Below are positions 5,014-20,047 of a stretch of 64,000 nucleotides of DNA, in pieces. The position numbers and the translations under genes are program-made. Numbering within the stretch: position 1 is the first letter of the stretch; every line of letters begins with the position of its first letter. The DNA is from Hyphomicrobiaceae bacterium (GTDB lineage: Bacteria; Pseudomonadota; Alphaproteobacteria; Rhizobiales; Hyphomicrobiaceae): positions 31,224 through 95,223 of the forward strand of contig JALHOW010000010.1 of assembly GCA_022842785.1 (NCBI GenBank), written 5' to 3'. The notes under the pieces were generated by a model that saw nothing but the letters and a program-made list of their open reading frames with translations, was not told where the DNA came from and made no database searches.

Positions 5014-5757
5014 ATGGTGCAGACAGTCATTTGCGCAAAGTGGGGCACTCGGTATCCCTCGGCATATGTGAACTGTCTGTGGTCGATGATCCGTCGAAAT
5101 TCGAAACGCGATACGCGCCTCGTCTGCTACACCGATGACGCGACCGGAATAGACCCGGATGTCGTCACCTACCCGATGCCGACGGTGCCGATTCCTTCGC
5201 GCAAGGCCAACTATCCCTGGCGCAAGATCTCGCTCTGGCAAGAACAACTGGAAGGCATCTCAGGGGACGTGCTGTTCCTCGACCTCGATGTCGTCGTGAC
5301 GGGTTCGATCGACGAGTTCTTCGATTACAAGCCCGAGGCGACCTTCTGCGTCATCGAGAACTGGACGCAGATGGGATCGAAGATCGGCAATACGTCCGTC
5401 TATCGCTTCCGCGTCGGTTCGCACGCCTATCTCTACGAGACCCTGGCGGCCGATCCCATGGGCGTCACGGAACGCTTTCCCAATAGCCAGACGTACATCT
5501 CGCGTACGATCAAGAGCATCGAGTTCTGGCCGGCGCCATGGTGTGTCAGCTTCAAGCACACGCTCATGCCAAGATGGCCGCTGAATTTCGTCATGACGAC
5601 GAAGCTGCCGCCCGCGACGAAGGTTGTCTGCTTCACAGGCAAGCCCGATCCGGATGAAGCGCGTGACGGCGCCTGGCCCACGAAGCGCTGGTACGAGAAG
5701 GCCTACAAGTTCGTCCGCCCGACACCCTGGATCGCCGCGCATTGGCGCGAAGATTGA
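5014..5757 (+). CDS. GT-A fold glycosyltransferase
   Basis: VICAKWGTRY...YVN, CYTDD, VLFLDLDVVV (DxD); GGAGGA RBS before ATG 5014. Confidence 0.75.
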   Translation: MVQTVICAKWGTRYPSAYVNCLWSMIRRNSKRDTRLVCYTDDATGIDPDVVTYPMPTVPIPSRKANYPWRKISLWQEQLEGISGDVLFLDLDVVVTGSIDEFFDYKPEATFCVIENWTQMGSKIGNTSVYRFRVGSHAYLYETLAADPMGVTERFPNSQTYISRTIKSIEFWPAPWCVSFKHTLMPRWPLNFVMTTKLPPATKVVCFTGKPDPDEARDGAWPTKRWYEKAYKFVRPTPWIAAHWRED

Positions 5758-5781: not shown

Positions 5782-5997
5782 TCATTGCGCTTCGGGCGGC
5801 GACGCATACATCCATTTGATGAGATAGCCGGCCGGCAGCACCCAGGCGACACCAGCAATCGCGTAGAAGATCAGTTCCACGATCTTGCCGGATCCCGGCA
5901 GGACGGATGCCGCCGCCAGCATCACGACCAGCGAGTAGATGATCAGGACGACAAGCAGAAGTACCGTCCCGAGGAGCTTTCGTGTGCGTGCGTGCAT
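5782..5997 (-). CDS. DUF2842 family small membrane protein
   Basis: R.RKLLG..LL....IY...V; FYAIAGVAWVLPA..LIKWM. Confidence 0.8.
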   Translation of the reverse strand: MHARTRKLLGTVLLLVVLIIYSLVVMLAAASVLPGSGKIVELIFYAIAGVAWVLPAGYLIKWMYASPPEAQ

Positions 5998-6006
5998 GAT
6001 TATCCG

Positions 6007-7134
6007 TCAGTCGAAAACGATCATCTGCCGTACGACGGCAGCATCTGCGAGCCGGTCGAAGCCTTCGTTGACCTCGTCGAGCTTGATCAGCGCGCTGCGG
6101 AGCCGGTCCACAGGCAACTTGCGGTCCTTGTAGAGCGAAATATAGCGCGGCACGTCACGCGCAATGACGCATCCGCCCATGTAGCTGCCCTTCACTGTGC
6201 GGCCGTCCTGGACCATCTGATAGTGATTGACGGGGAACTGCGCCGTCGCAGGCGAGAGGCCGGCGGATACGGTCTGACCACCACGCACGGTGATCTTGTA
6301 GGCGAGTTCCATGGCTTTGATGCTTCCGGCCATCTCGAAGGATGAATCCACCCCGCCATCCGTCGCCGCGATGATGCGATCGACGCAATCGGCGTCCTTG
6401 GCGTTGAACGTGTCCGTGGCGCCGAGTTGACGCGCGAGCGCGAGCTTTTCATCCGAAACGTCGATCGCGAGAATGCGCCCGGCGCCCGCGACGATCGCGC
6501 CGAGAAGGCATGAAAGTCCGACGCCGCCGAGGCCGACGACAGCGACCGTCTCACCCGGCTTCACGTTGGCCGTATTCACGGCCGCGCCGACACCGGTCAC
6601 GACAGCGCAACCGAACAGCGCCGCATCATGCATCGGCACGTCCGAGGGGATTTTCTGCACGGAGTTGCGCGGCACGACAGCGTACTCGGCGAAGCACGAT
6701 AGGCCGGAGTTGTGCGCGATCGATTGCCCTTTGAGGCTCAGGCGCCGCCCGCCGGTCGCGAGATCGCCTTTCTGACGGGCTGCGTTGAAGGTCGTGCACA
6801 GGAACGGCCGCTGCGAGATGCACTGGCGGCACTGCCCGCAGCTCGGCGCGAAGATGAAGACGACGGAGTCGCCCGGTTTGATGTCGGTCACACCGGCGCC
6901 GACCTCGGTGACGACGCCCGCGCCCTCGTGGCCCACAACCATGGGCAATGGGCGCGGCCTGACGCCTTCGATGGTCGAGAGATCAGAGTGGCAGAGCCCC
7001 GCGGCCTTCACCTGGACGAGCACTTCGCCGGCGCGCGGCCCTTCGAGGTCGAGCGTCTCGATCCTGAGCGGCTGGCTTTTGGCATAAGGACGCGGCAGGC
7101 CCTGCTCGTACAGGACGGCACCTCGGATTTTCAT
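6007..7134 (-). CDS. Zn-dependent alcohol dehydrogenase (class III-like)
   Basis: GLCHSD, GHEGAG, CGQCRQC structural Zn site, FGCAVVTG, GLGGVG. Confidence 0.92.
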   Translation of the reverse strand: MKIRGAVLYEQGLPRPYAKSQPLRIETLDLEGPRAGEVLVQVKAAGLCHSDLSTIEGVRPRPLPMVVGHEGAGVVTEVGAGVTDIKPGDSVVFIFAPSCGQCRQCISQRPFLCTTFNAARQKGDLATGGRRLSLKGQSIAHNSGLSCFAEYAVVPRNSVQKIPSDVPMHDAALFGCAVVTGVGAAVNTANVKPGETVAVVGLGGVGLSCLLGAIVAGAGRILAIDVSDEKLALARQLGATDTFNAKDADCVDRIIAATDGGVDSSFEMAGSIKAMELAYKITVRGGQTVSAGLSPATAQFPVNHYQMVQDGRTVKGSYMGGCVIARDVPRYISLYKDRKLPVDRLRSALIKLDEVNEGFDRLADAAVVRQMIVFD

Positions 7135-10440: not shown

Positions 10441-10525
<85 letters not shown>

Positions 10526-10591: not shown

Positions 10592-10625
10592 TGTTATACA
10601 CGGGTGCTATACATGGGCGTTATCA
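10592..10625 (+). repeat. 13-bp-period imperfect direct repeats TGTTATACA / TGCTATACA / CGTTATCA, probable integrase arm-type sites
   Basis: Same 9-mer TGTTATACA recurs at 19960-19968 near attR. Confidence 0.6.
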
Positions 10626-12376
10626 GGATGGCACGGCCAACCCGCCGAAAAGGGTCGACATACATCCAATTCGACCGCCGGATTCCGAAGGCCGTCCTTG
10701 ATCGGGTGCGCGGCCAGAAGCTGCTCATTCCCGTGGGAACGGAGGTCGTCGAGAAGCGCATCTCGCCCTCCGCCATCCACCTGAAGCTGTCCCTCCGCAC
10801 CGACGACAAGGCCGAAGGGAAGCTGCGGCATGCGCAGATCGATGGATACTTGGAGCGCGTCTATGCGGGGCTGCTCACCGCTGTACCGGTCAAGCTCACT
10901 CACCGCGAATGTGTGGCCATAGCAGGGGTATTCTACCGAGGCTGGGCCAATGAGGCCACTGACCGAGGGACTGCTACCGTCACTGAGCTGGACGAGGACG
11001 GCAACTGGGTGACGACCACGGTCGAAGGCGGGCTGATTGATGCCGGTTATGAGCCGGACGATTTGGCCGCTATCTATGGCACCGTCTCTGGACAGATGTC
11101 GGCCGCAAAAGACCCGATCGATCCCGATGGGAAGGAACTCTCGGCGCTCGTGGCACGATGGCTTCTCGGCATCAGCCTTGTCATCGACGAAGCATCTATG
11201 AAGATCGTTGTTGGTGAGGTCAGGAAGGCGATTGCGGATGCGTTCGCCACCAAGCAGAGGAACGCTCTAGGCGACTATAGTCCCGATCCGAAGGCCGATC
11301 GCTTCCCGCCCATATCCGAGGTTTCTGAGAAGCACTCCCGGAAGCCTGCGACTGTGACACGGGGCAAGTCAGAGCCATTGACGCTCACAGAGCTGTTCAC
11401 GCGATGGAAGGACAGTCCCGATCAGCGCGGAGATGCCAAGAGCCCAGGCATAGCGCAGAGCACTATCGCGAGCTATTCGACTGTCTTCCGTCAGCTCGGC
11501 GAGTTCCTGAAGCATGAAGAGGTGCGGCGGATCACTCGGGACGATATCGAGGGCTTCCTCAAGAAGAGGCGGGAGGACGGGATCGCGCAGAAGACGGTCG
11601 TCGGCGTTGATCGAGCTGCCATCCGTTCCATCTTCAAGTGGGCAGCCGAGAACAGGATCATTCAGGACAACCCGGCGGCGACACTGTGGAAGCCCAAGGC
11701 GCGCAAGAAGGCGAGGACGCGGGGAGATAAGGTCTTCACCGAGGACGAGTGCGTTGCCATCCTCAAACATGCGTCGGGCTATCAGCCTCGGAGCAATCGA
11801 GAGGACAGGAAGCTGATAGCGGCCAAGCGCTGGGTGCCATGGCTGATGGCCTACTCAGGGCTGCGTGTCGGTGAGGTTGCTCAGCTTCGCAAGAAGGACA
11901 TCGAAGAACACCATGGGCATTGGGCTATGGCGATCGACTTCAATGCCGGCACCACCAAGAGCAAAGGGACGTGGCATGTACCTTTGCATTCTCACCTGAT
12001 CGATCTCGGCTTCCTCGATTTCGTGAAGCGTGCCCGCGATGGGTACTTATTCATCGATCCGACACCCGAGCGATACAAGGCGGAGGCTCCGGAAAGCCGA
12101 ACGAAGGATGAGCGCGGGATACTAGGCCCGCTGAAGACGCTTCAGAATGACCTTGCTGAGTTTGCCAGAGAGGTCGTCAAGCGTGAATCCGTGCCCCCCA
12201 ATCATGGCTGGCGCCACACGTTCATCTCCATGTGCCGGACGGTCGGTATAGACCCCGAGACGCAACGCGCCTTCCACGATCACGCGGGCGAGACGGTATC
12301 CGAGTCCGAGTACGGCGTGTTCTATCCTGCGATGATCGAGGTGCTGAAGAAGATACCGAGGTATGAAGTCAAATAG
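10604..12376 (+). CDS. Tyrosine recombinase/integrase with DUF6538-like N-terminus (start may be ATG 10628, MARPTRRKGS)
   Basis: Catalytic set GLRVGE (R), TTKSK (K), HGWRH (HxxR), FHDHA (H), SEYG (Y); adjacent to tRNA att. Confidence 0.92.
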   Translation: MLYMGVIRMARPTRRKGSTYIQFDRRIPKAVLDRVRGQKLLIPVGTEVVEKRISPSAIHLKLSLRTDDKAEGKLRHAQIDGYLERVYAGLLTAVPVKLTHRECVAIAGVFYRGWANEATDRGTATVTELDEDGNWVTTTVEGGLIDAGYEPDDLAAIYGTVSGQMSAAKDPIDPDGKELSALVARWLLGISLVIDEASMKIVVGEVRKAIADAFATKQRNALGDYSPDPKADRFPPISEVSEKHSRKPATVTRGKSEPLTLTELFTRWKDSPDQRGDAKSPGIAQSTIASYSTVFRQLGEFLKHEEVRRITRDDIEGFLKKRREDGIAQKTVVGVDRAAIRSIFKWAAENRIIQDNPAATLWKPKARKKARTRGDKVFTEDECVAILKHASGYQPRSNREDRKLIAAKRWVPWLMAYSGLRVGEVAQLRKKDIEEHHGHWAMAIDFNAGTTKSKGTWHVPLHSHLIDLGFLDFVKRARDGYLFIDPTPERYKAEAPESRTKDERGILGPLKTLQNDLAEFAREVVKRESVPPNHGWRHTFISMCRTVGIDPETQRAFHDHAGETVSESEYGVFYPAMIEVLKKIPRYEVK

Positions 12377-13100
12377 AACCTGTGGTTCCGGGCGCCTCCA
12401 GCGGTTCAGGATTCCCTGTCCTGTACTGGAAGGTCAACATCGGAGCTGATGCCGGCCGATACTGATACCTTCCACCGCCTTCGAACTCGATTGCTTCAGA
12501 CCATCGCTGCATTACGCCGTCGAGGACCCGAATGCGGCTCACGAGATCATCCAAGTCCAGATTGATGTCGCGCGCAGACAGCACGAAGCTCTGCGTAAAG
12601 CACAGCAACTGAGTATCCAGGACGAGCCCTGTTGCGGAGTGGCGCAGTCTTGAACTTGCAGCCATAACTGTCGCGTACCTCAAGGGCGCTTTGTCGCTTG
12701 CCCAGGAGATGGCGCCCCAAAGTGGCGGCTGCGAAGGACTGAGCTTTCCAACTTCTGCGTTGATGTGCTGGATGTAGTGGCGCAGGTCCTCGACGGTCGC
12801 TGTCGCCTTGATGAATGTGACGAAAGCAGGCTCCTGTCGCTTCACTACAGGGAACTGCCTGAGCAACATGCGAATGCGGTGCGCTGCATCGATGATCGAC
12901 CACACGTCGGCAACTACCTCAATAACCTCAGCTTCAGCCGGCCCTACCTCTGGGTGCTCTTCGAACGTCCGCAGCTTCCTGAGCGCCCTCTTATGGCACA
13001 TATCGGCAATCGCGCAGGAGTAGCGTACACCGTCTAGGCTCAGCAGCAGCCGACGCACTCGATCTGCATCGATCCCGATTCGCTGTGGTCTGTCGGTCAT
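12369..13100 (-). CDS. Hypothetical protein, putative HEPN-family nuclease (RHYIQH)
   Basis: Helical region DVWSIIDAAHRIRMLL followed by EDLRHYIQH (RxxxxH); GAGGAT RBS before ATG 13100. Confidence 0.55.
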   Translation of the reverse strand: MTDRPQRIGIDADRVRRLLLSLDGVRYSCAIADMCHKRALRKLRTFEEHPEVGPAEAEVIEVVADVWSIIDAAHRIRMLLRQFPVVKRQEPAFVTFIKATATVEDLRHYIQHINAEVGKLSPSQPPLWGAISWASDKAPLRYATVMAASSRLRHSATGLVLDTQLLCFTQSFVLSARDINLDLDDLVSRIRVLDGVMQRWSEAIEFEGGGRYQYRPASAPMLTFQYRTGNPEPLEAPGTTGSI

Positions 13101-13288
13101 GGCGTTTATCCTCACGGAGCTGTTCGCCACAAGTCGTGCGCCGATTCGATATTCTCCTACAGTTGCTCCGCTGATGGTGTGTCGTTGGATTGACATGTCA
13201 TGTGGGATGCGTGATCCGGAAGAGAGGACGCCTATTGCCTCCAGCCGAATCGAACTACCGTTCAGCGCTTTGGCATTGAGGCAACGTG

Positions 13289-14017
13289 ATGACCGCGAAC
13301 GAGGGGTTTGGGGTCGCCTTCCAATTCGAGGGCTTGCTGGCTGACGTTGCGGGGCTTGATGGTTCCGATCACGAGGCCGCGACTCAAGCGGCGCGGCGTC
13401 TCCTTGCTCTTCACTCTCAAGTGTTTCTCACAGGGAAGGTACCGAGGGCAGCCCTTTCTGAAGGTGATGGGTACCATGTGATCCACGTTGCAAGCCGCCA
13501 AGGCTCTCACGTCGATCTTTGGCAGATTCTCGTTACAAATCCGAACCCCTGGCTGGTCACTGTCGCCGGAGGCCTGGGCTTTTTCCTCTTTGAGGATGAG
13601 ATCAAGCTAGCCGTAAAGAAGGCCAAACGCTTTCTGAGGAACAGCGTGAGGACTACCCTTCGAAGCCGGCCGTATCAGCCGCCAGAGATACCGCTAGCTC
13701 AACCCGTGCTGCAGGCCTTGAGCGGGAACAATGCGCCGATCGTCGATGTGGAGATCGAGGCAGCATACGAACGCGAGCGCCTACGCGATGTCACGGTGCA
13801 TATTCTCTCGGACCTTGCACGCCCCATTGGACGCAGCGCGCACACTCTGACGATCATTGTGGATGGCGAGCGCATCGCCACCATCGATGGAGCACTGAAG
13901 AGCCGACTGGTCAGGGAGCGAGAGGAGGCCTCTGCAAGGCAGCTTCGCCTAGATGAAGAGATCGCTGATGCATTGCGACCGTTGAGGGCGACGCGCGCTA
14001 GTAGAAACGCAGCGTAG
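13289..14017 (+). CDS. Hypothetical mobile-element protein, DUF7946-like
   Basis: F.FEG..AD...LD..D...A.Q...RLL..H...F.TGKV...LARPIGRSA.TLTI recalls DUF7946 from memory; GAGG RBS. Confidence 0.5.
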   Translation: MTANEGFGVAFQFEGLLADVAGLDGSDHEAATQAARRLLALHSQVFLTGKVPRAALSEGDGYHVIHVASRQGSHVDLWQILVTNPNPWLVTVAGGLGFFLFEDEIKLAVKKAKRFLRNSVRTTLRSRPYQPPEIPLAQPVLQALSGNNAPIVDVEIEAAYERERLRDVTVHILSDLARPIGRSAHTLTIIVDGERIATIDGALKSRLVREREEASARQLRLDEEIADALRPLRATRASRNAA

Positions 14018-14052: not shown

Positions 14053-15111
14053 CTAGATCAGCTCCGCACCGCTATCGCGCTTCACTGCAGCACCAGCCTC
14101 ATACCAGGGCTTCGTCGCGTTCACGATCTTCACGACGCTCAGCATCACGGGCACCTCGATGAGGACTCCGACGACCGTGGCCAGCGCGGCGCCGGAGTTG
14201 AGGCCGAACAGTCCGATCGCTGCCGCGACCGCAAGCTCGAAGAAGTTGCTTGCCCCGATCAGGGCAGAGGGGGCCGCCACGCAGTGAGCCTCGCCAGTCC
14301 AGCGATTGAGCACGTAGGCGAGGCCCGCGTTGAAGTAGACCTGAATGAGGATCGGCACGGCGAGGAGCGCGATCACCAGCGGCTGAGCAAGGATCTGTGG
14401 ACCTTGGAATGCGAACAGCAGCACGAGGGTCGCCAGCAATGCCATGAGCGAGAGAGGCTGCACCGCAGTGAGTAGTCTCGCCAGCCCTACTTCCCCTGCT
14501 CGCGACAGCGTCACTCGCCGGATGAGCTGGGCGAGGACGACCGGCACGACGATGTAGAGAACGACCGAGAGAATGAGCGTCTGCCACGGCACCACGATCG
14601 CTGAGAGGCCCAACAGCAGGGCGACGATGGGCGCGAAGGCGAAGATCATGATCACGTCATTGAGCGCAACTTGGCTCAGTGTGAAGTGCGGCTCACCGTC
14701 AGAGAGGTTGCTCCACACGAACACCATGGCGGTGCACGGCGCGGCGGCAAGCAGGATGAGCCCCGCAATGTAGCTGCTGACTTGATCAGGAGGCAGCAGT
14801 GGACGGAAGAGCCATGCAATGAAGATCCACCCTAGCAGGGCCATCGAGAACGGCTTCACAGCCCAGTTGATGAAGAGCGTTACGCCAATGCCGCGCCAGT
14901 GCTCCGTGACGCGCAGCAGCGCCCCGAAGTCGATCTTGACGAGCATTGGGATGATCATCAGCCAAATCAGCAGGGCTACTGGCAGATTGACACTGGCGAT
15001 CTCGGCCGCGGCGATCGCCTGGAAGAGGCCCGGCGCCAGCCATCCGATGGCAATGCCTGCCACGATGCATAGAGCGACCCAGAGGGTCAGATAACGTTCA
15101 AAGGTGGACAT
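14053..15111 (-). CDS. acr3: ACR3 family arsenite efflux transporter
   Basis: MSTFERYLTLWV, LIWLMIIPML, AAPCTAMVFVWS, GASNFFELAVA, GVLIEVPVML. Confidence 0.95.
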   Translation of the reverse strand: MSTFERYLTLWVALCIVAGIAIGWLAPGLFQAIAAAEIASVNLPVALLIWLMIIPMLVKIDFGALLRVTEHWRGIGVTLFINWAVKPFSMALLGWIFIAWLFRPLLPPDQVSSYIAGLILLAAAPCTAMVFVWSNLSDGEPHFTLSQVALNDVIMIFAFAPIVALLLGLSAIVVPWQTLILSVVLYIVVPVVLAQLIRRVTLSRAGEVGLARLLTAVQPLSLMALLATLVLLFAFQGPQILAQPLVIALLAVPILIQVYFNAGLAYVLNRWTGEAHCVAAPSALIGASNFFELAVAAAIGLFGLNSGAALATVVGVLIEVPVMLSVVKIVNATKPWYEAGAAVKRDSGAELI

Positions 15112-15153: not shown

Positions 15154-15681
15154 TCAGCCAGCTTTCCCGCGGGGCACCGTGCTTCCCTCCATGGCCCCGA
15201 TTTCCTTCAGGCGTGTGCCGAGCGCCATACGGTCGATGCTCTGGAGGGGCAGCGCGACGAAGGCGCCGATGCGGTTGCGCAGGAAGCGGAAAGCCTTCTC
15301 GAAGGCCCGCTCCTTCTCGATATCGCTGCCTTCGACGGTCGCGGGGTCCTCAATGCCCCAGTGCGCGGTGATGGGCTGCCCGGGCCAGAGTGGGCAAGCC
15401 TCGCCCGCAGCCTGATCACAGACCGTGAAGACGAAGTCCATCTTGGGTGCACCGGCTTCGGCGAACTCGCTCCAGCTCTTCGAGCGGAGACCGTCGAGCG
15501 GGTACTCGTGGGCAGCCAACGTCTTGATGGCGAAAGGATTGACCTCGCCCTTCGGCATGCTTCCCGCCGAGAACGCTTGGAAGCGCCCCGCGCCTTCTCT
15601 GCGCAGTATCGCCTCGGCAAGGATGGATCTCGCGCTGTTGCCAGTGCAGAGGAACAGCACGTTGTAGGTCGCGGTGCTCAT
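15154..15681 (-). CDS. arsC: Arsenate reductase, LMW-PTP type
   Basis: VLFLCTGNSARSILAE, FTVCD.AAGEACP.WPGQP.TAHWG..DP. Confidence 0.92.
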   Translation of the reverse strand: MSTATYNVLFLCTGNSARSILAEAILRREGAGRFQAFSAGSMPKGEVNPFAIKTLAAHEYPLDGLRSKSWSEFAEAGAPKMDFVFTVCDQAAGEACPLWPGQPITAHWGIEDPATVEGSDIEKERAFEKAFRFLRNRIGAFVALPLQSIDRMALGTRLKEIGAMEGSTVPRGKAG

Positions 15682-15772: not shown

Positions 15773-16093
15773 ATGAAACTCGATGATGCAGCGGCCCACC
15801 TGGAGGCCCTCGGTAATCCGACGCGGCTCAAGATCTTTCGAGCGCTCGTTCGGGCTGGAGACAACGGGCTGAGCGTCGGCAAGCTACAAACCCGCCTGGA
15901 CATCGCCGCCTCGACCCTCTCGCATCACTTGAAGACGTTGCTTGTGGTCGGCCTCATCACGCAGGAGCGGCAGTCAACAACTCTGATCTGCCGCGCGAGC
16001 TACGACTTGATGCGAGGTCTGGTCGATTTCCTCGTCGATGAGTGCTGTGTCGAGTCCACTGGCACACTGTGTGTCACTAAGTCGGCCTGCTGA
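15773..16093 (+). CDS. arsR: ArsR/SmtB repressor with C-terminal Cys cluster
   Basis: LEALGNPTRLKIFRALVRAG, STLSHHL, FLVDECC...C.....C. Confidence 0.9.
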   Translation: MKLDDAAAHLEALGNPTRLKIFRALVRAGDNGLSVGKLQTRLDIAASTLSHHLKTLLVVGLITQERQSTTLICRASYDLMRGLVDFLVDECCVESTGTLCVTKSAC

Positions 16094-16128: not shown

Positions 16129-17472
16129 ATGAGCAAGACCGTCGCGATCGTTGGGGCTGGCCCCGTGGGTTTGGCCGCTGCCGCACACGCCCTGGAGCGG
16201 GGCCTGGAGCCGATCGTTCTGGAGGCCGGAGACGCTGCGGGTGATGCCGTGCGCCAGTGGAGCCACGTCCGCATGTTCTCTCCATGGGAGTACAACATCG
16301 ACAAGGCTGCGGCTCGAATGCTGGCCAGAGCCGGCTGGAACACGCCCGATCCGCAAGGCTACCCGACGGGTGGCGAGCTGGTGTCTCGCTACGTCGCCCC
16401 ACTTGCGACTCGAACCGCATTGCGCGGACACATCCGCACGTCAGCACGTGTGACCTCGATCGGCCGTGTGGGCTTCGACAAGGCGAAGTCAAAGGGCCGC
16501 GAGGCGGCGCCGTTCGAGATCCGTTATCGCAACGGCAAGGGACCGGAGCGCCTTATTGCCGACGCCGTGATCGATGCGTCGGGGACGTGGCACTCGCCCA
16601 ATCCGGCGGGTGACAACGGGCTTGCCGCATTCGGCGAACTCGAGTGCGCTGAGCGTCTGGCCTACGGGATGCCGGATGTGTTGGGGCGCCAGCGCGATCG
16701 GTACGCTGGCAAGAGAGTGGCGGTGCTCGGCGCTGGGCATTCGGCCATCGGGACGCTCATCGATCTCGTGAAGCTCAAGGAGGCCGCAGAAGGGACGGAG
16801 GTTCTTTGGCTGATCCGTGGCCCTGATCCTCGTAAATCTTTCGGCGGCGGTGCCAACGACAAGCTCTCGGCGCGAGGCGAACTTGGCACGACATTCGCCC
16901 GGCTCGTCAACGCAGGGACTATCCGCGTCGAGACCGGATTTCACGTAACGCATGTAGGTCTCGCGAACGATCGCCTGCGCATTGGGGCCGGATCTGCTTG
17001 CTGTGGCCGACACGTGATCGCCGATGAGCTGATCGTCTTGACGGGTTTCAGGCCGGACATGTCGTATCTGGCAGAGTTGCGCCTCGGTCTCGACGCGGCA
17101 CTCGACTGCCCCACGGCACTGGCTCCTCTCATCGATCCCAACGAGCATAGCTGCGGCACGGTTCGTCCACATGGGGCTCGCGAACTCGCGCATCCCGAGG
17201 CTGGCTTCTACATCGCTGGCATGAAGTCCTATGGACGTGCGCCGACCTTTCTCATGCTGACCGGGTATGAGCAGGTGCGGTCGATCATTGCAGACATCGC
17301 CGGTGACAAGGAGGCTGCACGGCGCGTCGAGCTGGTCCTGCCCGAAACAGGAGTCTGTTCGCGCGAGCCGCTTTCGGAGGCGTCAGGCTGCTGCGCTACG
17401 CCGACCACGAACGAGACTTCAGCTTGCTGCGCAACCGCGCCAACCAAGAAGTCCGCGACTTGCTGCGGCTGA
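16129..17472 (+). CDS. Flavin-dependent monooxygenase of ars clusters (ArsV-like by inference) with Cys-rich tail
   Basis: GAGPVG (FAD), GAGHSA (NADPH), DASGTW, GMKSYGRAPTFL..TGYEQVRS; tail with three CC pairs. Confidence 0.8.
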   Translation: MSKTVAIVGAGPVGLAAAAHALERGLEPIVLEAGDAAGDAVRQWSHVRMFSPWEYNIDKAAARMLARAGWNTPDPQGYPTGGELVSRYVAPLATRTALRGHIRTSARVTSIGRVGFDKAKSKGREAAPFEIRYRNGKGPERLIADAVIDASGTWHSPNPAGDNGLAAFGELECAERLAYGMPDVLGRQRDRYAGKRVAVLGAGHSAIGTLIDLVKLKEAAEGTEVLWLIRGPDPRKSFGGGANDKLSARGELGTTFARLVNAGTIRVETGFHVTHVGLANDRLRIGAGSACCGRHVIADELIVLTGFRPDMSYLAELRLGLDAALDCPTALAPLIDPNEHSCGTVRPHGARELAHPEAGFYIAGMKSYGRAPTFLMLTGYEQVRSIIADIAGDKEAARRVELVLPETGVCSREPLSEASGCCATPTTNETSACCATAPTKKSATCCG

Positions 17473-17501: not shown

Positions 17502-18749
17502 ATGGACGGGTCTGGTGAGATCGACCGCACGGCGGCCCGCCGTCTGGTGGCGTTGGTCTGTACCGCGCAAGTGCTTGTGCAGATCGGGGCGTTCTTCTGG
17601 CCCGCTCTGCTGCCTCAGTTGGCCCCGCAGTGGGGCCTCTCGAACAGTGGCGCTGGCTGGATCACAGCGGCCTTCTACGGCGCCTACATGCTGGCGGTGC
17701 CGGTGCTGGTGCCGCTCACCGACCGCTATGACCCCAAGCGCATTTATCTGCTCGGCGTGGGCCTCACGATCGTCGGCCACGCCATGTTCGGGCTCATGGC
17801 GGACGGCTTCTGGTCGGCGCTGCTGTGCCGCGCTCTGACCGGGATTGGATGGGCTGGCACCTACATGACGGGTCTCAAGCTGCTTGCCGATCGCGTCGAT
17901 GCAAAGATGATGTCGCGGGCAACTGCGGGACATGCAGCCAGCATCGGGATCTCCGGTGCGATGTCCTTTGCGACGGCCGAATGGATCACGCATCTCGGTG
18001 GCTGGCAGAGCGCCTTTGTTGCAGCGGCCCTCAGCGCCGTTCTCGCGTGGTTGATCATCGCCACTGTGGTGCCCGCTCAGGTTCGCAAGCCAGCCCGCGC
18101 GGCGGATGGCGGCGGGCTTTACGACTTCCGCCCTGTCCTGAAGAACCGCTCGGCAATGGCCTACGCGCTCGCTTACTGCGTTCATACGCTGGAGATGAGC
18201 GCCCTACGTGGTTGGGGCGTGGCGTTTCTCGCTTATGTCGCCGCCACTACCGGTAGCCAGGGAGCAGCGATCTCACCTGCCGTGCTCGTTACTGGGCTGG
18301 GGCTCATCGGGACCTTCGCGAGCCTCCTCGGAAACGAGGCGGCCATTCGACTGGGGAGACGGCGTCTCGTGCAAACCGCCATGTTCGCCTCCGTTGTGCT
18401 CGGCGGCACGATCGGCTTCCTTGGCACGTACTCGTACACGGTCGCCGCGATCCTCATGCTGGTCTACGGCTTGGTGATCTGGCTCGACTCCTCGTCGCTG
18501 ACGGCCGGTGCCGCCGGTACAGCAGAACCGTCGCGGCGTGGCGCAACCCTCGCGGTGCACTCGTCTCTCGGGTATGCGGGAGGCTTTGTCGGTCCGCTCA
18601 TGATGGGCTGGACGCTCGATCTCAGTGGCGGGATGTCCACCCTGGGTTGGGGCGTTTCTTTCGCCGCGGTCTCGGCGCTGATGCTGCTCGCGTTGATCGC
18701 GTTCTGGTGGATACGACCTAGGGAGCTTGCTGGCGACCGAGGGAGCTGA
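17502..18749 (+). CDS. MFS transporter in arsR operon
   Basis: About 12 hydrophobic segments; loop motif LTDRYDPKRIY; 29-bp gap after the monooxygenase. Confidence 0.88.
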   Translation: MDGSGEIDRTAARRLVALVCTAQVLVQIGAFFWPALLPQLAPQWGLSNSGAGWITAAFYGAYMLAVPVLVPLTDRYDPKRIYLLGVGLTIVGHAMFGLMADGFWSALLCRALTGIGWAGTYMTGLKLLADRVDAKMMSRATAGHAASIGISGAMSFATAEWITHLGGWQSAFVAAALSAVLAWLIIATVVPAQVRKPARAADGGGLYDFRPVLKNRSAMAYALAYCVHTLEMSALRGWGVAFLAYVAATTGSQGAAISPAVLVTGLGLIGTFASLLGNEAAIRLGRRRLVQTAMFASVVLGGTIGFLGTYSYTVAAILMLVYGLVIWLDSSSLTAGAAGTAEPSRRGATLAVHSSLGYAGGFVGPLMMGWTLDLSGGMSTLGWGVSFAAVSALMLLALIAFWWIRPRELAGDRGS

Positions 18750-18837: not shown

Positions 18838-19731
18838 TCAAGGGCCCGATGGGGTGGCATTGTGGGGTAGCGGCTGGGAAGCATCGTCCTTCCGCGAAAA
18901 CTGATTGACCATGCACTTCAGTTGGCAGTCGTTCCAGTCGAAGGCCTCGCTCCGCTTGGCTGCTTTCGCTCTTTGCGATGAGCAACGGCTTTTGCAGGCA
19001 TCATTGGGGTTCGCAGGTTTGGGTTTCGCAGCCTTTGCGCTCGTTGGCTGGCGCTGCGCCCCTTCAATGGCGGGGCTGCGACTGACGGTCACGCGTTTTT
19101 CGTCCGACGCGATCGGTATTCCGGGGCTGTGCAGGCTATCGACCTTTGGCATCGCGATTGGCTGGATACCCTGCTGCTTGCCTTTGTCTCGAATTGAGCC
19201 CGTGGACTGAGGGGCTGTCACTCGCCAATCTGTTCTCCAGGCTGATGGCGCAGGCGATGGGGAAGGGGGCCGAGGAACAAGTGCGGCGAGGCAGGCGGCC
19301 ACAAAGCCAAGGACAATGAGCGCTGCCCACCCGTTCCCCAAGCTGGCCCTGCGTGCTGGAACCTCTGGCTGTGTCGGCGCTCTCTCGTCTACTGATATTC
19401 TTCGCGTGCCATACTCCGCGAGGGACTGAGCAGCGTCGGCAAATCCTCTTGCTCCGCCAGCTCTTGAGAACATGACAAGCTCATTCAACCCACTGGGGCT
19501 TGTCAGATGCAGCTCTTCATAGCGGCAGATCGGTAGCTGTCTGTTGAATGCAAACCGTCGATCCGGTCCGCCCTTCTTGTTGGGATGTTGCCAAGTGTGG
19601 TCCACTACTTGAGCATCTGTAGGAACGGTGCCACCTTCAATGTACCGAACGCTGCGCGCGTCGAGGTTGATCTGAGAGTATGAGATCGCTCCCGCGCTGT
19701 GTCGGTCCGTGACGAGCAGGAAGTCGGGGAA
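18838..19731 (-). pseudogene. Probably 5'-truncated gene whose N-part resembles the C-terminal region of DUF4236-type proteins, followed by TM and Pro-rich/CxxxC tail
   Basis: Reading upstream of the called GTG (19605) continues in frame: FPDFLLVTD...SVRYIEGGTVPTDAQVVDHTWQHPNKKGGPDRRF; no start codon before the in-frame stop at ~19795. Confidence 0.5.
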
Positions 19732-20028: not shown

Positions 20029-20047
20029 AGTCCTATTCTGGGCACCA
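20029..20047 (+). repeat. attR core AGTCCTATTCTGGGCACCA
   Basis: Copy of tRNA-Leu 3' end with one mismatch (C10513 vs A20035). Confidence 0.9.

What the first reader, a model, noticed from the sequence alone, without database searches (positions are those of the whole stretch)
12369..13100. Putative HEPN RNase tail-to-tail with the integrase: candidate new anti-phage or addiction gene
Seen: a 243-aa protein with its own RBS and an RxxxxH motif (RHYIQH, 12765-12782) after a predicted helical bundle; its 3' end overlaps the integrase 3' end by 8 bp. Established: RxxxxH is the HEPN RNase active site, common in Abi and toxin systems, and integrase-adjacent slots of tRNA islands are defence hotspots. 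Inference: an undescribed defence nuclease, possibly working with the divergent gene at 13289.
Basis: partly seen in the sequence, partly recalled or inferred. Interest (0 to 1): 0.72.

Follow-up and report, generated by a model that had tools for sequence, protein, structure and literature searches.

The report
Unannotated solo HEPN-like RNase gene family
The gene next to the integrase is real and belongs to a rare protein family found in no reference family library; the family carries every sequence hallmark of HEPN RNA-cutting toxins, works without a fixed partner gene, and is probably a single-gene phage-defence or addiction nuclease, though its fold match and activity remain untested.

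Summary
ORF 12369-13100 (-) is a real 243-aa gene with a GAGGA ribosome-binding site. Its 3' end overlaps the integrase 3' end by 8 bp, and RHYIQH lies at 12765-12782.

A bare RxxxxH is not beyond chance (0.58 expected, 2 present). Conservation is what matters. A full HMMER scan found 752 relatives. In 112 aligned relatives R107 is 111/112, H112 is 112/112, and the residue after R is N, H or D in 110/112. D71-x3-R75 on the preceding long helix is 109/112 each. These are the published HEPN signatures, and they sit where HEPN expects them in a confident AlphaFold model (pLDDT 93).

No Pfam, NCBIfam, PADLOC, PHROGs or PDB sequence profile detects the family. Foldseek gives no significant hit. HEPN membership is therefore signature-level only.

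The proposed partner gene at 13286 never co-occurs with relatives, so that idea is not supported. Relatives are solo genes, AT-richer than their flanks in the loci examined. They sit beside recombinases, nucleases or a DUF4238 defence gene, or inside housekeeping operons.

The gene is cargo of a 9.5-kb tRNA-Leu arsenic-resistance island. My best reading is a new solo HEPN family of latent RNases (defence or addiction), at confidence about 0.5.

The parts
12369..13100 (-). Candidate gene: a 243-aa cytoplasmic protein and member of an unannotated family of about 220-250-aa solo proteins
   Evidence: ORF and coding bias. 752 relatives by full HMMER. The start is supported by homologue N-termini. 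No TM segment, maximum KD19 of 1.24. AF2 with MSA gives pLDDT 93.1 and pTM 0.88.
13109..13113 (-). Shine-Dalgarno-like GAGGA, 8 nt upstream of the ATG at 13100
   Evidence: Read directly from the sequence.
12765..12782 (-). Codons for R107-H-Y-I-Q-H112, the candidate HEPN Rx4H catalytic motif at the end of model helix 101-111
   Evidence: R107 is 111/112. Position 108 is N in 62, H in 46 and D in 2. Q111 is 110/112 and H112 is 112/112.
12876..12890 (-). Codons for D71-A-A-H-R75, an acidic-x3-basic motif on model helix 56-81. It is the candidate equivalent of the HEPN helix-2 Ex3[KR] motif.
   Evidence: D71 is 109/112 (plus 2 E) and R75 is 109/112 (plus 2 K). The HEPN definition is from PMC3710099.
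12495..12749 (-). Residues 118-202: a beta-rich region (strands 130-134, 142-146, 172-176, 179-182) followed by helix 183-202. It begins with the conserved PxWGxxSW. Proposed to be an insert plus the fourth bundle helix.
   Evidence: DSSP of the AF2 model. P126 is 101/112, W128 is 88/112, and G129 and W133 are each 112/112.
10604..12376 (+). Tyrosine integrase (590 aa) of the island, convergent with the candidate and overlapping it by 8 bp
   Evidence: Phage_int_SAM_1, Phage_integrase and DUF6538 hits. XerD/XerC-type NCBIfam hits.
10441..10525 (+). tRNA-Leu(CAG), the integration target. Its last 19 nt (10507-10525) form the left copy of the att repeat.
   Evidence: ARAGORN. Repeat.
20029..20047 (+). 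Right copy of the att repeat, AGTCCTATTCTGGGCACCA, 18/19 identical to the tRNA 3' end. It marks the far end of the ~9.5-kb island.
   Evidence: 12-nt exact core found, extended to 18/19. Contigs of a related strain in runs X1 and X6 match the window only from 20029/20030 rightwards.
13286..14017 (+). It is not linked to the family.
   Evidence: Only a sub-threshold DUF7946 hit, E 0.022. No relative in 31 loci or in plasmids.

Best explanation
The ORF encodes an intact member of a previously unannotated, sparsely but widely distributed bacterial protein family. I read the family as a new branch of the HEPN superfamily: a metal-independent endoribonuclease whose active site is built from R107, N/H108 and H112 at the end of the third core helix, and from D71/R75 on the second helix.

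The protein works alone, with no conserved partner. It is carried as cargo by mobile DNA, here a 9.5-kb tRNA-Leu integrative island that also carries arsenic-resistance genes.

By analogy with solo HEPN abortive-infection proteins (HepS, AbiD/AbiF, AbiU2, AbiJ), it is probably made in a latent state. The beta-rich region inserted after the catalytic motif, and/or oligomerisation, would keep it inactive. An invader-derived trigger would then switch it on to cut tRNA or mRNA and arrest the infected cell.

Shown here: that the gene and the family are real, the motif conservation, the confident two-part model, the lack of a partner, the AT-rich mobile-type contexts, and the island boundaries. Inferred: the HEPN fold, RNase activity, latency, the trigger, and the defence role.
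For: Family and intactness: 752 relatives, 294 of them at E<=1e-10. P0001 keeps every conserved residue except G148 (Ala).

HEPN signature, as defined in PMC3710099:
- The definition places Rx4-6H at the end of helix 3, with N/D/H after the R. Here R107 is 111/112, position 108 is N/H/D in 110/112, and H112 is 112/112. The model helix 101-111 ends exactly at H112.
- The definition includes a second conserved acidic residue on helix 2, as Ex3[KR]. Here D71-x3-R75 on helix 56-81 is 109/112 each.
- The definition includes an insert between helices 2 and 3. Here that is residues 82-100, with a short helix.

Weak corroboration: the only family-level PADLOC matches seen in more than one member are tm_HEPN and Csx28, the HEPN proteins associated with CRISPR type VI-B (2 members each, best E 0.0016). 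One member hit Abi_C at E 0.07. HepT (6m6u) ranked 5th of 350,542 PDB chains, but at E 0.5.

Solo status: no neighbour family recurs across about 21 distinct contexts.

Mobility: relatives are AT-richer than their flanks in every locus examined, for example 0.34 against 0.60-0.64 in L007 and 0.578 against about 0.63 here.

Conflict-type neighbours:
- Window: tyrosine integrase.
- L015: serine recombinase, tyrosine integrase and a PDC-S33 RelA/SpoT-like protein.
- L005: serine recombinase.
- L006: a DUF4238 gene with a 4-bp overlap. DUF4238 is a tested anti-T7 defence protein.
- L014: NYN/HEC-09.
- L001: PIN.
- L003: an IS element.

Precedent: a solo HEPN protein is sufficient for sensing and abortive infection (HepS, PMC13043305).
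Against: No HEPN-clan profile detects the query, any of the 112 relatives or the family consensus, even at E<=10.

Profile search of PDB sequences finds nothing. Foldseek of a pLDDT-93 model has no hit below E 0.09 in the PDB or BFVD, although solved HEPN structures, including HepT, are in that library.

The packing of helix 183-202 as the fourth bundle helix could not be checked.

Several relatives sit in non-defence places: inside an ABC-transporter operon, between sucC and sucD, and upstream of rpsL. No relative was found on 2.9 million viral contigs or in 50,697 phage records.

There are no expression data, because the source is a biofilter/drinking-water metagenome.
Confidence: 0.5

Rival explanations
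1. The family is not HEPN. It would be a helical-plus-beta protein of another, unknown kind (a regulator, adaptor or a different enzyme), and its conserved R/H/D residues would merely mimic the HEPN signature.
For: There is no profile or structural match to any HEPN family. The top Foldseek hits are generic helical bundles such as ferritin/Dps, talin and TBCA. Some relatives are co-oriented and tightly packed inside housekeeping operons.
Against: The four best-conserved polar positions fall exactly on the four HEPN signature positions, and on the expected helices. Position 108 is restricted to N/H/D in 110/112. HEPN families are known to be mutually undetectable by simple profile searches; PMC3710099 needed HHpred plus motif inspection.
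Confidence: 0.25
2. It is a toxin that stabilises the island (addiction), held in check by an unrecognised cis-acting antitoxin. One candidate is antisense RNA from the convergent integrase transcript that overlaps its 3' end. It would not be a phage sensor.
For: The 8-bp convergent overlap leaves no room for terminators between the two genes. Recombinase adjacency recurs in the window, L015, L005, L003 and L012. A PIN toxin lies in the same small insert in L001.
Against: Most relatives have no recombinase nearby and no conserved flanking ORF or repeat. In L007 only 47 bp precede the gene and 3 bp follow it, which leaves no room for an antitoxin gene.
Confidence: 0.12
3. It is one half of a two-gene system with the divergent ORF at 13286-14017.
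For: The two genes are divergent, with a shared 185-bp intergenic region. The neighbour has a faint DUF7946 match, E 0.022.
Against: tblastn finds the neighbour in none of 31 loci that hold relatives of the candidate, and in no plasmid record. All-against-all comparison of 81 flanking proteins shows no recurrent partner.
Confidence: 0.04
4. It is a housekeeping or operon-specific RNA-processing or regulatory factor, comparable to the HEPN-derived regulator MtlR in the mannitol operon.
For: L007-L010: the gene lies between the permease and ATPase genes of an ABC transporter, co-oriented, on 7 contigs. L016/L017: it follows oligopeptide ABC ATPase genes. L027: it lies upstream of rpsL/rpsG.
Against: The operons differ from case to case. 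The inserted gene is sharply AT-richer than the operon (GC3 0.27 against 0.87-0.90 in L007), so it is a recent foreign insertion. The family is rare and patchy: clusters of one or two members, spread over five phyla.
Confidence: 0.05

Closest known systems
HepS (HEPN Solo defence element, Gifsy-1 prophage; PMC13043305)
   Same: Both are single proteins of at most 250 aa with one Rx4H motif (R100-H105 in HepS, R107-H112 here). Both lack a conserved partner or inhibitor gene and are carried on an integrated mobile element. HepS shows that such a protein can both sense infection and execute abortive infection.
   Different: There is no detectable sequence or Foldseek similarity to anything in the PDB copy. 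HepS is often prophage-encoded, while this family was not found on viral contigs or in phage records. This family has a beta-rich region after the motif. Its oligomeric state, trigger and RNA target are unknown.
Lactococcal single-gene HEPN Abi proteins (AbiD/AbiD1/AbiF = Pfam Abi_2, AbiU2, AbiJ/Abi_C, AbiV)
   Same: They are stand-alone HEPN proteins on mobile DNA with a conserved Rx4-6H motif (Table 1 of PMC3710099). The RN-type form of the motif in those families is from my own recollection. Only one relative gave a faint Abi_C hit, E 0.07.
   Different: No Pfam model of these families matches the query, 111 of the 112 relatives or the family consensus. The length and the beta-rich insert also differ.
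HepT/MntA (HEPN-MNT, DUF86) toxin-antitoxin modules
   Same: The catalytic signature is the same. HepT (6m6u) is the only nuclease among the top Foldseek hits: rank 5, E 0.5, TM 0.38 on the target.
   Different: That hit is not significant. There is no adjacent nucleotidyltransferase (MNT) gene here or in any related locus. The protein is about twice the size of HepT.
Csx28 / tm_HEPN (accessory HEPN proteins of CRISPR type VI-B)
   Same: They are the only PADLOC families hit by more than one relative (2 members each, best E 0.0016 and 0.015).
   Different: The E-values are marginal given 112 searches. The query itself does not hit. There is no transmembrane segment and no CRISPR context.

Membership tests
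HEPN superfamily (Anantharaman et al. 2013, PMC3710099) | Conserved Rx4-6H motif with a polar N/D/H residue immediately after the R | tested here: met
   R107 is 111/112. Position 108 is N in 62, H in 46 and D in 2. H112 is 112/112. Definition.
HEPN superfamily (Anantharaman et al. 2013, PMC3710099) | The motif lies at the end of core helix 3 or the start of the following loop, often with a helix distortion there | tested here: met
   DSSP of the pLDDT-93 model shows helix 101-111, a break at H112, then helix 113-117. This rests on a predicted structure, not a solved one.
HEPN superfamily (Anantharaman et al. 2013, PMC3710099) | Second conserved acidic residue on helix 2, typically as Ex3[KR] | tested here: met
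   D71-x3-R75 on model helix 56-81. D71 is 109/112 (plus 2 E) and R75 is 109/112 (plus 2 K). D stands in place of E. Its proximity to R107/H112 in 3D was not measured.
HEPN superfamily (Anantharaman et al. 2013, PMC3710099) | Four-helix up-and-down bundle made of two alpha-hairpins, with an insert between helices 2 and 3 | tested here: inconclusive
   Helices 12-47 and 56-81, the insert 82-100 and helix 101-117 all fit. The fourth helix would have to be 183-202, after a beta-rich insert. Foldseek top hits are helical bundles but not significant.
HEPN superfamily (Anantharaman et al. 2013, PMC3710099) | Recovery of a known HEPN family by profile or structure comparison | tested here: not met
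HEPN superfamily (Anantharaman et al. 2013, PMC3710099) | Metal-independent RNase activity that depends on the R and H residues | not testable with these tools
   Needs biochemistry.
HepS family (solo HEPN Abi) | Sequence or structure homology to HepS | tested here: not met
   No PDB sequence hit with the query or the family profile, and no Foldseek hit. I did not confirm that HepS chains are in the PDB copy. No HepS-like ORF with R100/H105 is in the LT2 Gifsy-1 record, so no direct comparison was possible.
HepS family (solo HEPN Abi) | Stand-alone gene without a conserved partner, on a mobile element | tested here: met
   This is a functional resemblance, not evidence of homology.
HEPN-MNT (HepT/MntA) toxin-antitoxin | Adjacent minimal nucleotidyltransferase antitoxin gene | tested here: not met
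   No NTP-transferase neighbour in the window or among 81 flanking proteins of related loci.
Known anti-phage defence systems (PADLOC-DB v2.0.0) | Match to a model of a known or candidate defence protein | tested here: not met
   No hit for the query at E<=1. Only marginal tm_HEPN/Csx28 hits, in 2 of 112 relatives each.

The most novel reading that the evidence does not exclude
The family is a new solo-HEPN immune or selfish nuclease whose gene travels as a one-gene, AT-rich cassette. It can land not only beside integrases but also precisely between genes of essential operons: an ABC transporter in L007, and mdh-sucC|sucD in L001. If so, it is either mobilised by an unrecognised mechanism or retained because its loss is lethal. 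The beta-rich insert after the catalytic histidine would be a new type of trigger sensor.
Probability: 0.15. Interest if true: 0.75.

Novelty: new member of a known kind. Interest (0 to 1): 0.45.

Why it matters
If the HEPN reading and a defence or addiction role are confirmed, this would add a new family to the small set of single-protein HEPN immune nucleases. The family has about 750 clusters at 50% identity across at least five phyla.

None of the reference libraries I searched (Pfam, NCBIfam, PADLOC, PHROGs) recognises it, so pipelines built on those libraries miss it. It would provide a fresh sensor-plus-RNase module whose trigger and RNA target are unknown.

It also shows that motif-level conservation plus a confident AlphaFold model can flag HEPN families that HMM and Foldseek searches miss. 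If it turns out not to be HEPN, it is simply one more conserved hypothetical family on mobile DNA.

Tried and rejected
- Word-indexed homologue search with the single protein and with the alignments found little. The single protein found only itself. The alignments returned 16 and 3 mostly short-contig hits, all unnamed or named 'hypothetical protein'. The full HMMER scan was needed.
- An exact-sequence contig look-up of the window protein found nothing on record.
- The single-sequence AlphaFold model was useless (pLDDT 43), so only the MSA model was used.
- Pfam, NCBIfam, PADLOC and PHROGs were run on the query. Pfam, PADLOC and PHROGs were also run on the 112 relatives, and Pfam on the family consensus sequences. 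The result was only noise, plus marginal tm_HEPN/Csx28/Abi_C hits.
- PDB sequence and profile searches found nothing relevant. Foldseek against the PDB and BFVD gave nothing significant.
- Viral-contig scans with two subfamily alignments, and tblastn against phage records, found nothing. Two related-loci runs failed because the alignments were too diverse.
- I tried to obtain genuine HEPN reference sequences for an hhalign test:
  - The supplement of PMC3710099 holds only links.
  - The HepS paper has no held supplements.
  - The LT2 Gifsy-1 record has no ORF with R100/H105.
  - The pNP40 (AbiF) accession is not in the plasmid collection.
  No profile-profile test against HEPN could therefore be run.
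- Rejected: partner-gene hypothesis.
- Rejected: spurious antisense ORF.
- Rejected: 275-aa start.
- A promoter, terminator and repeat scan of the locus showed nothing above background.
- No RNA data exist for this metagenomic source.
Full report
**1. What is in the sequence**

The minus strand is open from 13196 to 12369. It is preceded by GAGGA at 13109-13113, with an 8-nt spacer.

Its TGA (12369-12371) and the TAG of the convergent 590-aa integrase (12374-12376) give the stated 8-bp overlap. RHYIQH is residues 107-112, encoded at 12765-12782.

GC content by codon position (0.615/0.463/0.656) is gene-like. Apart from its terminal stop, this frame is the only one without stops across the interval. 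The upstream extension to 13196 has no codon bias, and homologues start at the position of the 13100 ATG.

One caveat applies. A bare Rx4H is expected 0.58 times in a protein of this composition, and two are present. The motif in a single sequence means nothing on its own.

**2. It is a real family, and nobody has named it**

The word-indexed search of 5.8 billion proteins returned only the query. The exhaustive HMMER scan of 1.84 billion cluster representatives returned 752 proteins at E<=1e-3. Of these, 294 were at E<=1e-10 and 12 at E<=1e-30, with the best at 48% identity and E 1.5e-56.

Nearly all hits are 200-250 aa and match along most of their length. A few carry short N-terminal extensions, and none has another domain.

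Those with any source name are 'hypothetical protein', and clusters have one or two members. RefSeq also calls the Tunicatimonas plasmid member WP_302211019.1 hypothetical.

Pfam, NCBIfam and PADLOC give nothing for the query. Scanning all 112 aligned relatives gives only scattered noise in Pfam and PHROGs. The PDB has no sequence relative, even with the family profile.

Members occur in these lineages:
- Hyphomicrobiaceae, Hyphomicrobiales and Sphingorhabdus (Alphaproteobacteria)
- Nitrospiraceae
- Verrucomicrobiae
- Tunicatimonas (Bacteroidota)
- Gemmatirosa (Gemmatimonadota)

**3. Conservation and structure**

In the 112-sequence alignment A1, the invariant residues are W67, H112, G129 and W133. 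D71, R75, R107, Q111, P126 and G148 are at or above 90%.

Column counts are:

| Position | Count in 112 sequences |
|---|---|
| R107 | 111 |
| 108 | N 62, H 46, D 2 |
| Q111 | 110 |
| H112 | 112 |
| D71 | 109 (plus 2 E) |
| R75 | 109 (plus 2 K) |
| D23 | 100 |
| R26 | 93 |

The consensus reads ...FLDGIRYS...DAWSIVDxxHRLR...VExLR[N/H]xxQHL...PxWGxLSW.

With this alignment AlphaFold2 gives a confident model (mean pLDDT 93.1, pTM 0.88). Its elements are helices 12-47, 56-81, 91-99, 101-111 and 113-117, then strands 130-134, 142-146, 172-176 and 179-182, then helix 183-202. The protein has no hydrophobic segment typical of a membrane span.

**4. Is it HEPN?**

I took the definition from Anantharaman et al. 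2013 (PMC3710099). It has four parts:
- A four-helix bundle of two hairpins, with an insert between helices 2 and 3.
- The residue after R mostly N, D or H.
- In many families, a second conserved acidic residue on helix 2, as Ex3[KR], lying next to the motif.

The family meets each sequence criterion, and on the expected secondary-structure element:
- LR[N/H]xxQH closes helix 101-111, with the break exactly at H112.
- D71-x3-R75 sits on the second long helix.
- Residues 82-100 form the insert between helices 2 and 3.

The fourth helix would have to be 183-202, after a beta-rich insert. The same paper describes a beta-hairpin insert right after the motif in Csx1.

Against this, no method of homology detection available here connects the family to HEPN:
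- No HEPN-clan Pfam model hits, even for consensus sequences at E<=10.
- The PDB profile search finds nothing.
- Foldseek has no hit below E 0.09.

The faint signals all point the same way but are individually insignificant. HepT 6m6u ranks 5th at E 0.5. tm_HEPN and Csx28 are the only PADLOC families hit by two members. One member hit Abi_C.

I could not read the model's coordinates, and I could not obtain reference HEPN alignments for hhalign. My estimate that this is a catalytically active HEPN domain is about 0.65-0.7. Membership is supported at signature level only.

**5. Context in the window**

tRNA-Leu(CAG) lies at 10441-10525, followed by the integrase. The last 19 nt of the tRNA recur at 20029-20047 with one mismatch. 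This delimits a ~9.5-kb island that holds:
- the integrase
- the candidate gene
- the orphan ORF 13286-14017
- an ACR3-type (SBF) permease
- an LMW-phosphatase-type ArsC
- ArsR
- a pyridine-nucleotide-disulphide oxidoreductase
- an MFS transporter
- a further hypothetical ORF

In the metagenome runs that hold the sequence, the interior of the island has contig depth 3-6, against 18-90 for the flanks. Contigs of a ~95%-identical strain match only from 20029/20030 rightwards. This supports the right boundary and shows the island is strain-specific. GC content is about 0.58 for int-candidate-13286, against 0.63-0.68 around.

**6. Context of relatives**

I fetched 31 loci from GTDB genomes, metagenomes, plasmids and exact-protein look-ups. 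They represent about 21 distinct contexts.

The proposed partner (13286-14017) and the integrase have no relatives in these loci. The one exception is a distant tyrosine recombinase in L015. The partner is also absent from the plasmid collection.

A Pfam tally of 81 flanking proteins is heterogeneous. All-against-all BLAST finds no recurrent neighbour other than generic ABC ATPases and duplicates of the same lineage. The gene is therefore a solo.

Two patterns stand out. First, the gene is AT-richer than its flanks in every locus I examined:

| Locus | Gene GC | Flank GC |
|---|---|---|
| L007 | 0.34 | 0.60-0.64 |
| L016/L017 | 0.42 | 0.60 |
| L011 | 0.40 | 0.51-0.56 |
| L013 | 0.36 | about 0.47 |
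| L014 | 0.62 | 0.73 |
| L001 | 0.57 | 0.64-0.66 |

In L007 the drop is knife-sharp at the ends of the flanking genes.

Second, many neighbours are mobile-element or conflict genes:
- L015: serine recombinase, tyrosine integrase, and a 1092-aa RelA/SpoT-like protein matching PADLOC candidate PDC-S33.
- L005: a large serine recombinase.
- L003: an IS transposase.
- L012: an integrase fragment.
- L001: a PIN toxin in the same small insert.
- L014: an NYN/HEC-09 protein.
- L029: a weak HNH restriction-endonuclease-like protein.
- L006: a DUF4238 protein overlapping the gene start by 4 bp. DUF4238 was shown to give strong T7 resistance.

Other copies sit in plain housekeeping surroundings:
- between permease and ATPase genes of an ABC transporter
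- between sucC and sucD
- upstream of rpsL/rpsG

No copy was found on IMG/VR viral contigs or in phage records.

**7. Most likely function**

A catalytically intact HEPN-type RNase with no partner would poison its host unless it were latent. It is foreign in composition, carried by islands, and found next to recombinases and other nucleases.

The best-documented model is the solo HEPN abortive-infection protein. HepS is constitutively made as an inactive tetramer, is opened by a phage tail-tip protein, and then cuts tRNA anticodon loops (PMC13043305).

I propose the same logic here. The beta-rich region after the catalytic histidine begins with the invariant PxWGxxSW, and it is the candidate regulatory or substrate surface. 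Everything beyond the signature is inference.

An addiction role, stabilising the island, is a close alternative and is not exclusive. The two-gene idea is rejected. A non-HEPN reading keeps about a quarter of the probability.

**8. Novelty and score**

The family is absent from all four reference family libraries searched (Pfam, NCBIfam, PADLOC, PHROGs) and from the PDB sequence and structure searches, so as a family it is new. As a kind, a stand-alone HEPN RNase on mobile DNA, it is known.

I file it as a new member of a known kind, with interest 0.45.

The single-gene, AT-rich insertions into essential operons are the most unusual thing seen, and they deserve a separate look.

Noticed in passing
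L007 7953-8770 (also L008-L010): A family member with GC 0.34 (GC3 0.27) sits as a lone, co-oriented gene between two BPD_transp_1 permease genes and two ABC_tran ATPase genes whose GC is 0.60-0.64. The GC drop is knife-sharp, with only 47 bp upstream and 3 bp downstream of the gene. The protein was seen on 7 contigs, four of which are shown as loci.
   Followed up: partly
L001 4970-6916: In a Hyphomicrobiaceae MAG, a ~1.9-kb lower-GC insert splits the mdh-sucC | sucD TCA-cycle gene cluster. The insert holds a PIN-domain toxin gene (5020-5496, -) and the family member (6001-6714, +).
   Followed up: partly
L006 4913-7428: In a Verrucomicrobiae chromosome the family member (5971-6660) overlaps by 4 bp the end of a DUF4238 gene, a domain shown elsewhere to protect against T7. 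A 248-aa unknown ORF follows 22 bp later, so this may be a three-gene defence cluster. PADLOC did not hit either neighbour.
   Followed up: partly
L015 2910-10527: This is the second-closest relative by tblastn (43% identity, after L001's 46%) and the best-scoring. It lies divergent to a 1092-aa RelA/SpoT-like protein matching PADLOC candidate PDC-S33 (E 4e-12). A large serine recombinase and a P4-type tyrosine integrase lie within 3.5 kb downstream.
   Followed up: partly
window 10507-10525 and 20029-20047: A 19-nt imperfect direct repeat of the tRNA-Leu 3' end delimits a ~9.5-kb integrative island carrying an arsenic-resistance cluster: ACR3/SBF 14053-15111, ArsC 15154-15681, ArsR 15773-16093, an oxidoreductase with a Cys-rich tail 16129-17472, and MFS 17502-18749. 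Metagenome contigs of a related strain break exactly at 20029/20030, and the island interior has far lower depth than the flanks.
   Followed up: yes
window 13286-14017 (+): A 243-aa orphan ORF divergent from the candidate. It has gene-like codon GC, only a sub-threshold DUF7946 match (E 0.022), and no relative in the plasmid collection or in any fetched locus. Its function is unknown.
   Followed up: partly
window 18838-19605 (-): A 255-aa Pro/Ala/Ser-rich hypothetical ORF at the far end of the island, just inside the right att repeat. It has no Pfam hit.
   Followed up: no
L005 530-5459: In a Nitrospiraceae MAG, a 574-aa large serine recombinase and the family member (GC 0.37 against 0.44-0.46) lie directly upstream of an alaS ORF. 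As I called it, that ORF matches only positions 322-551 of the tRNA-synt_2c profile. This may be an element inserted at or in alaS, or simply a late start call.
   Followed up: no
L023 2510-2740, L024 870-1121: A 77-84-aa ORF (MKSWEIIADRLSKAGWSLGWVSAVDS...) overlaps the start of the family member by 14 bp. It is seen in the one lineage represented by L023 and L024 and has no PADLOC hit. It could be a lineage-specific partner or antitoxin.
   Followed up: no
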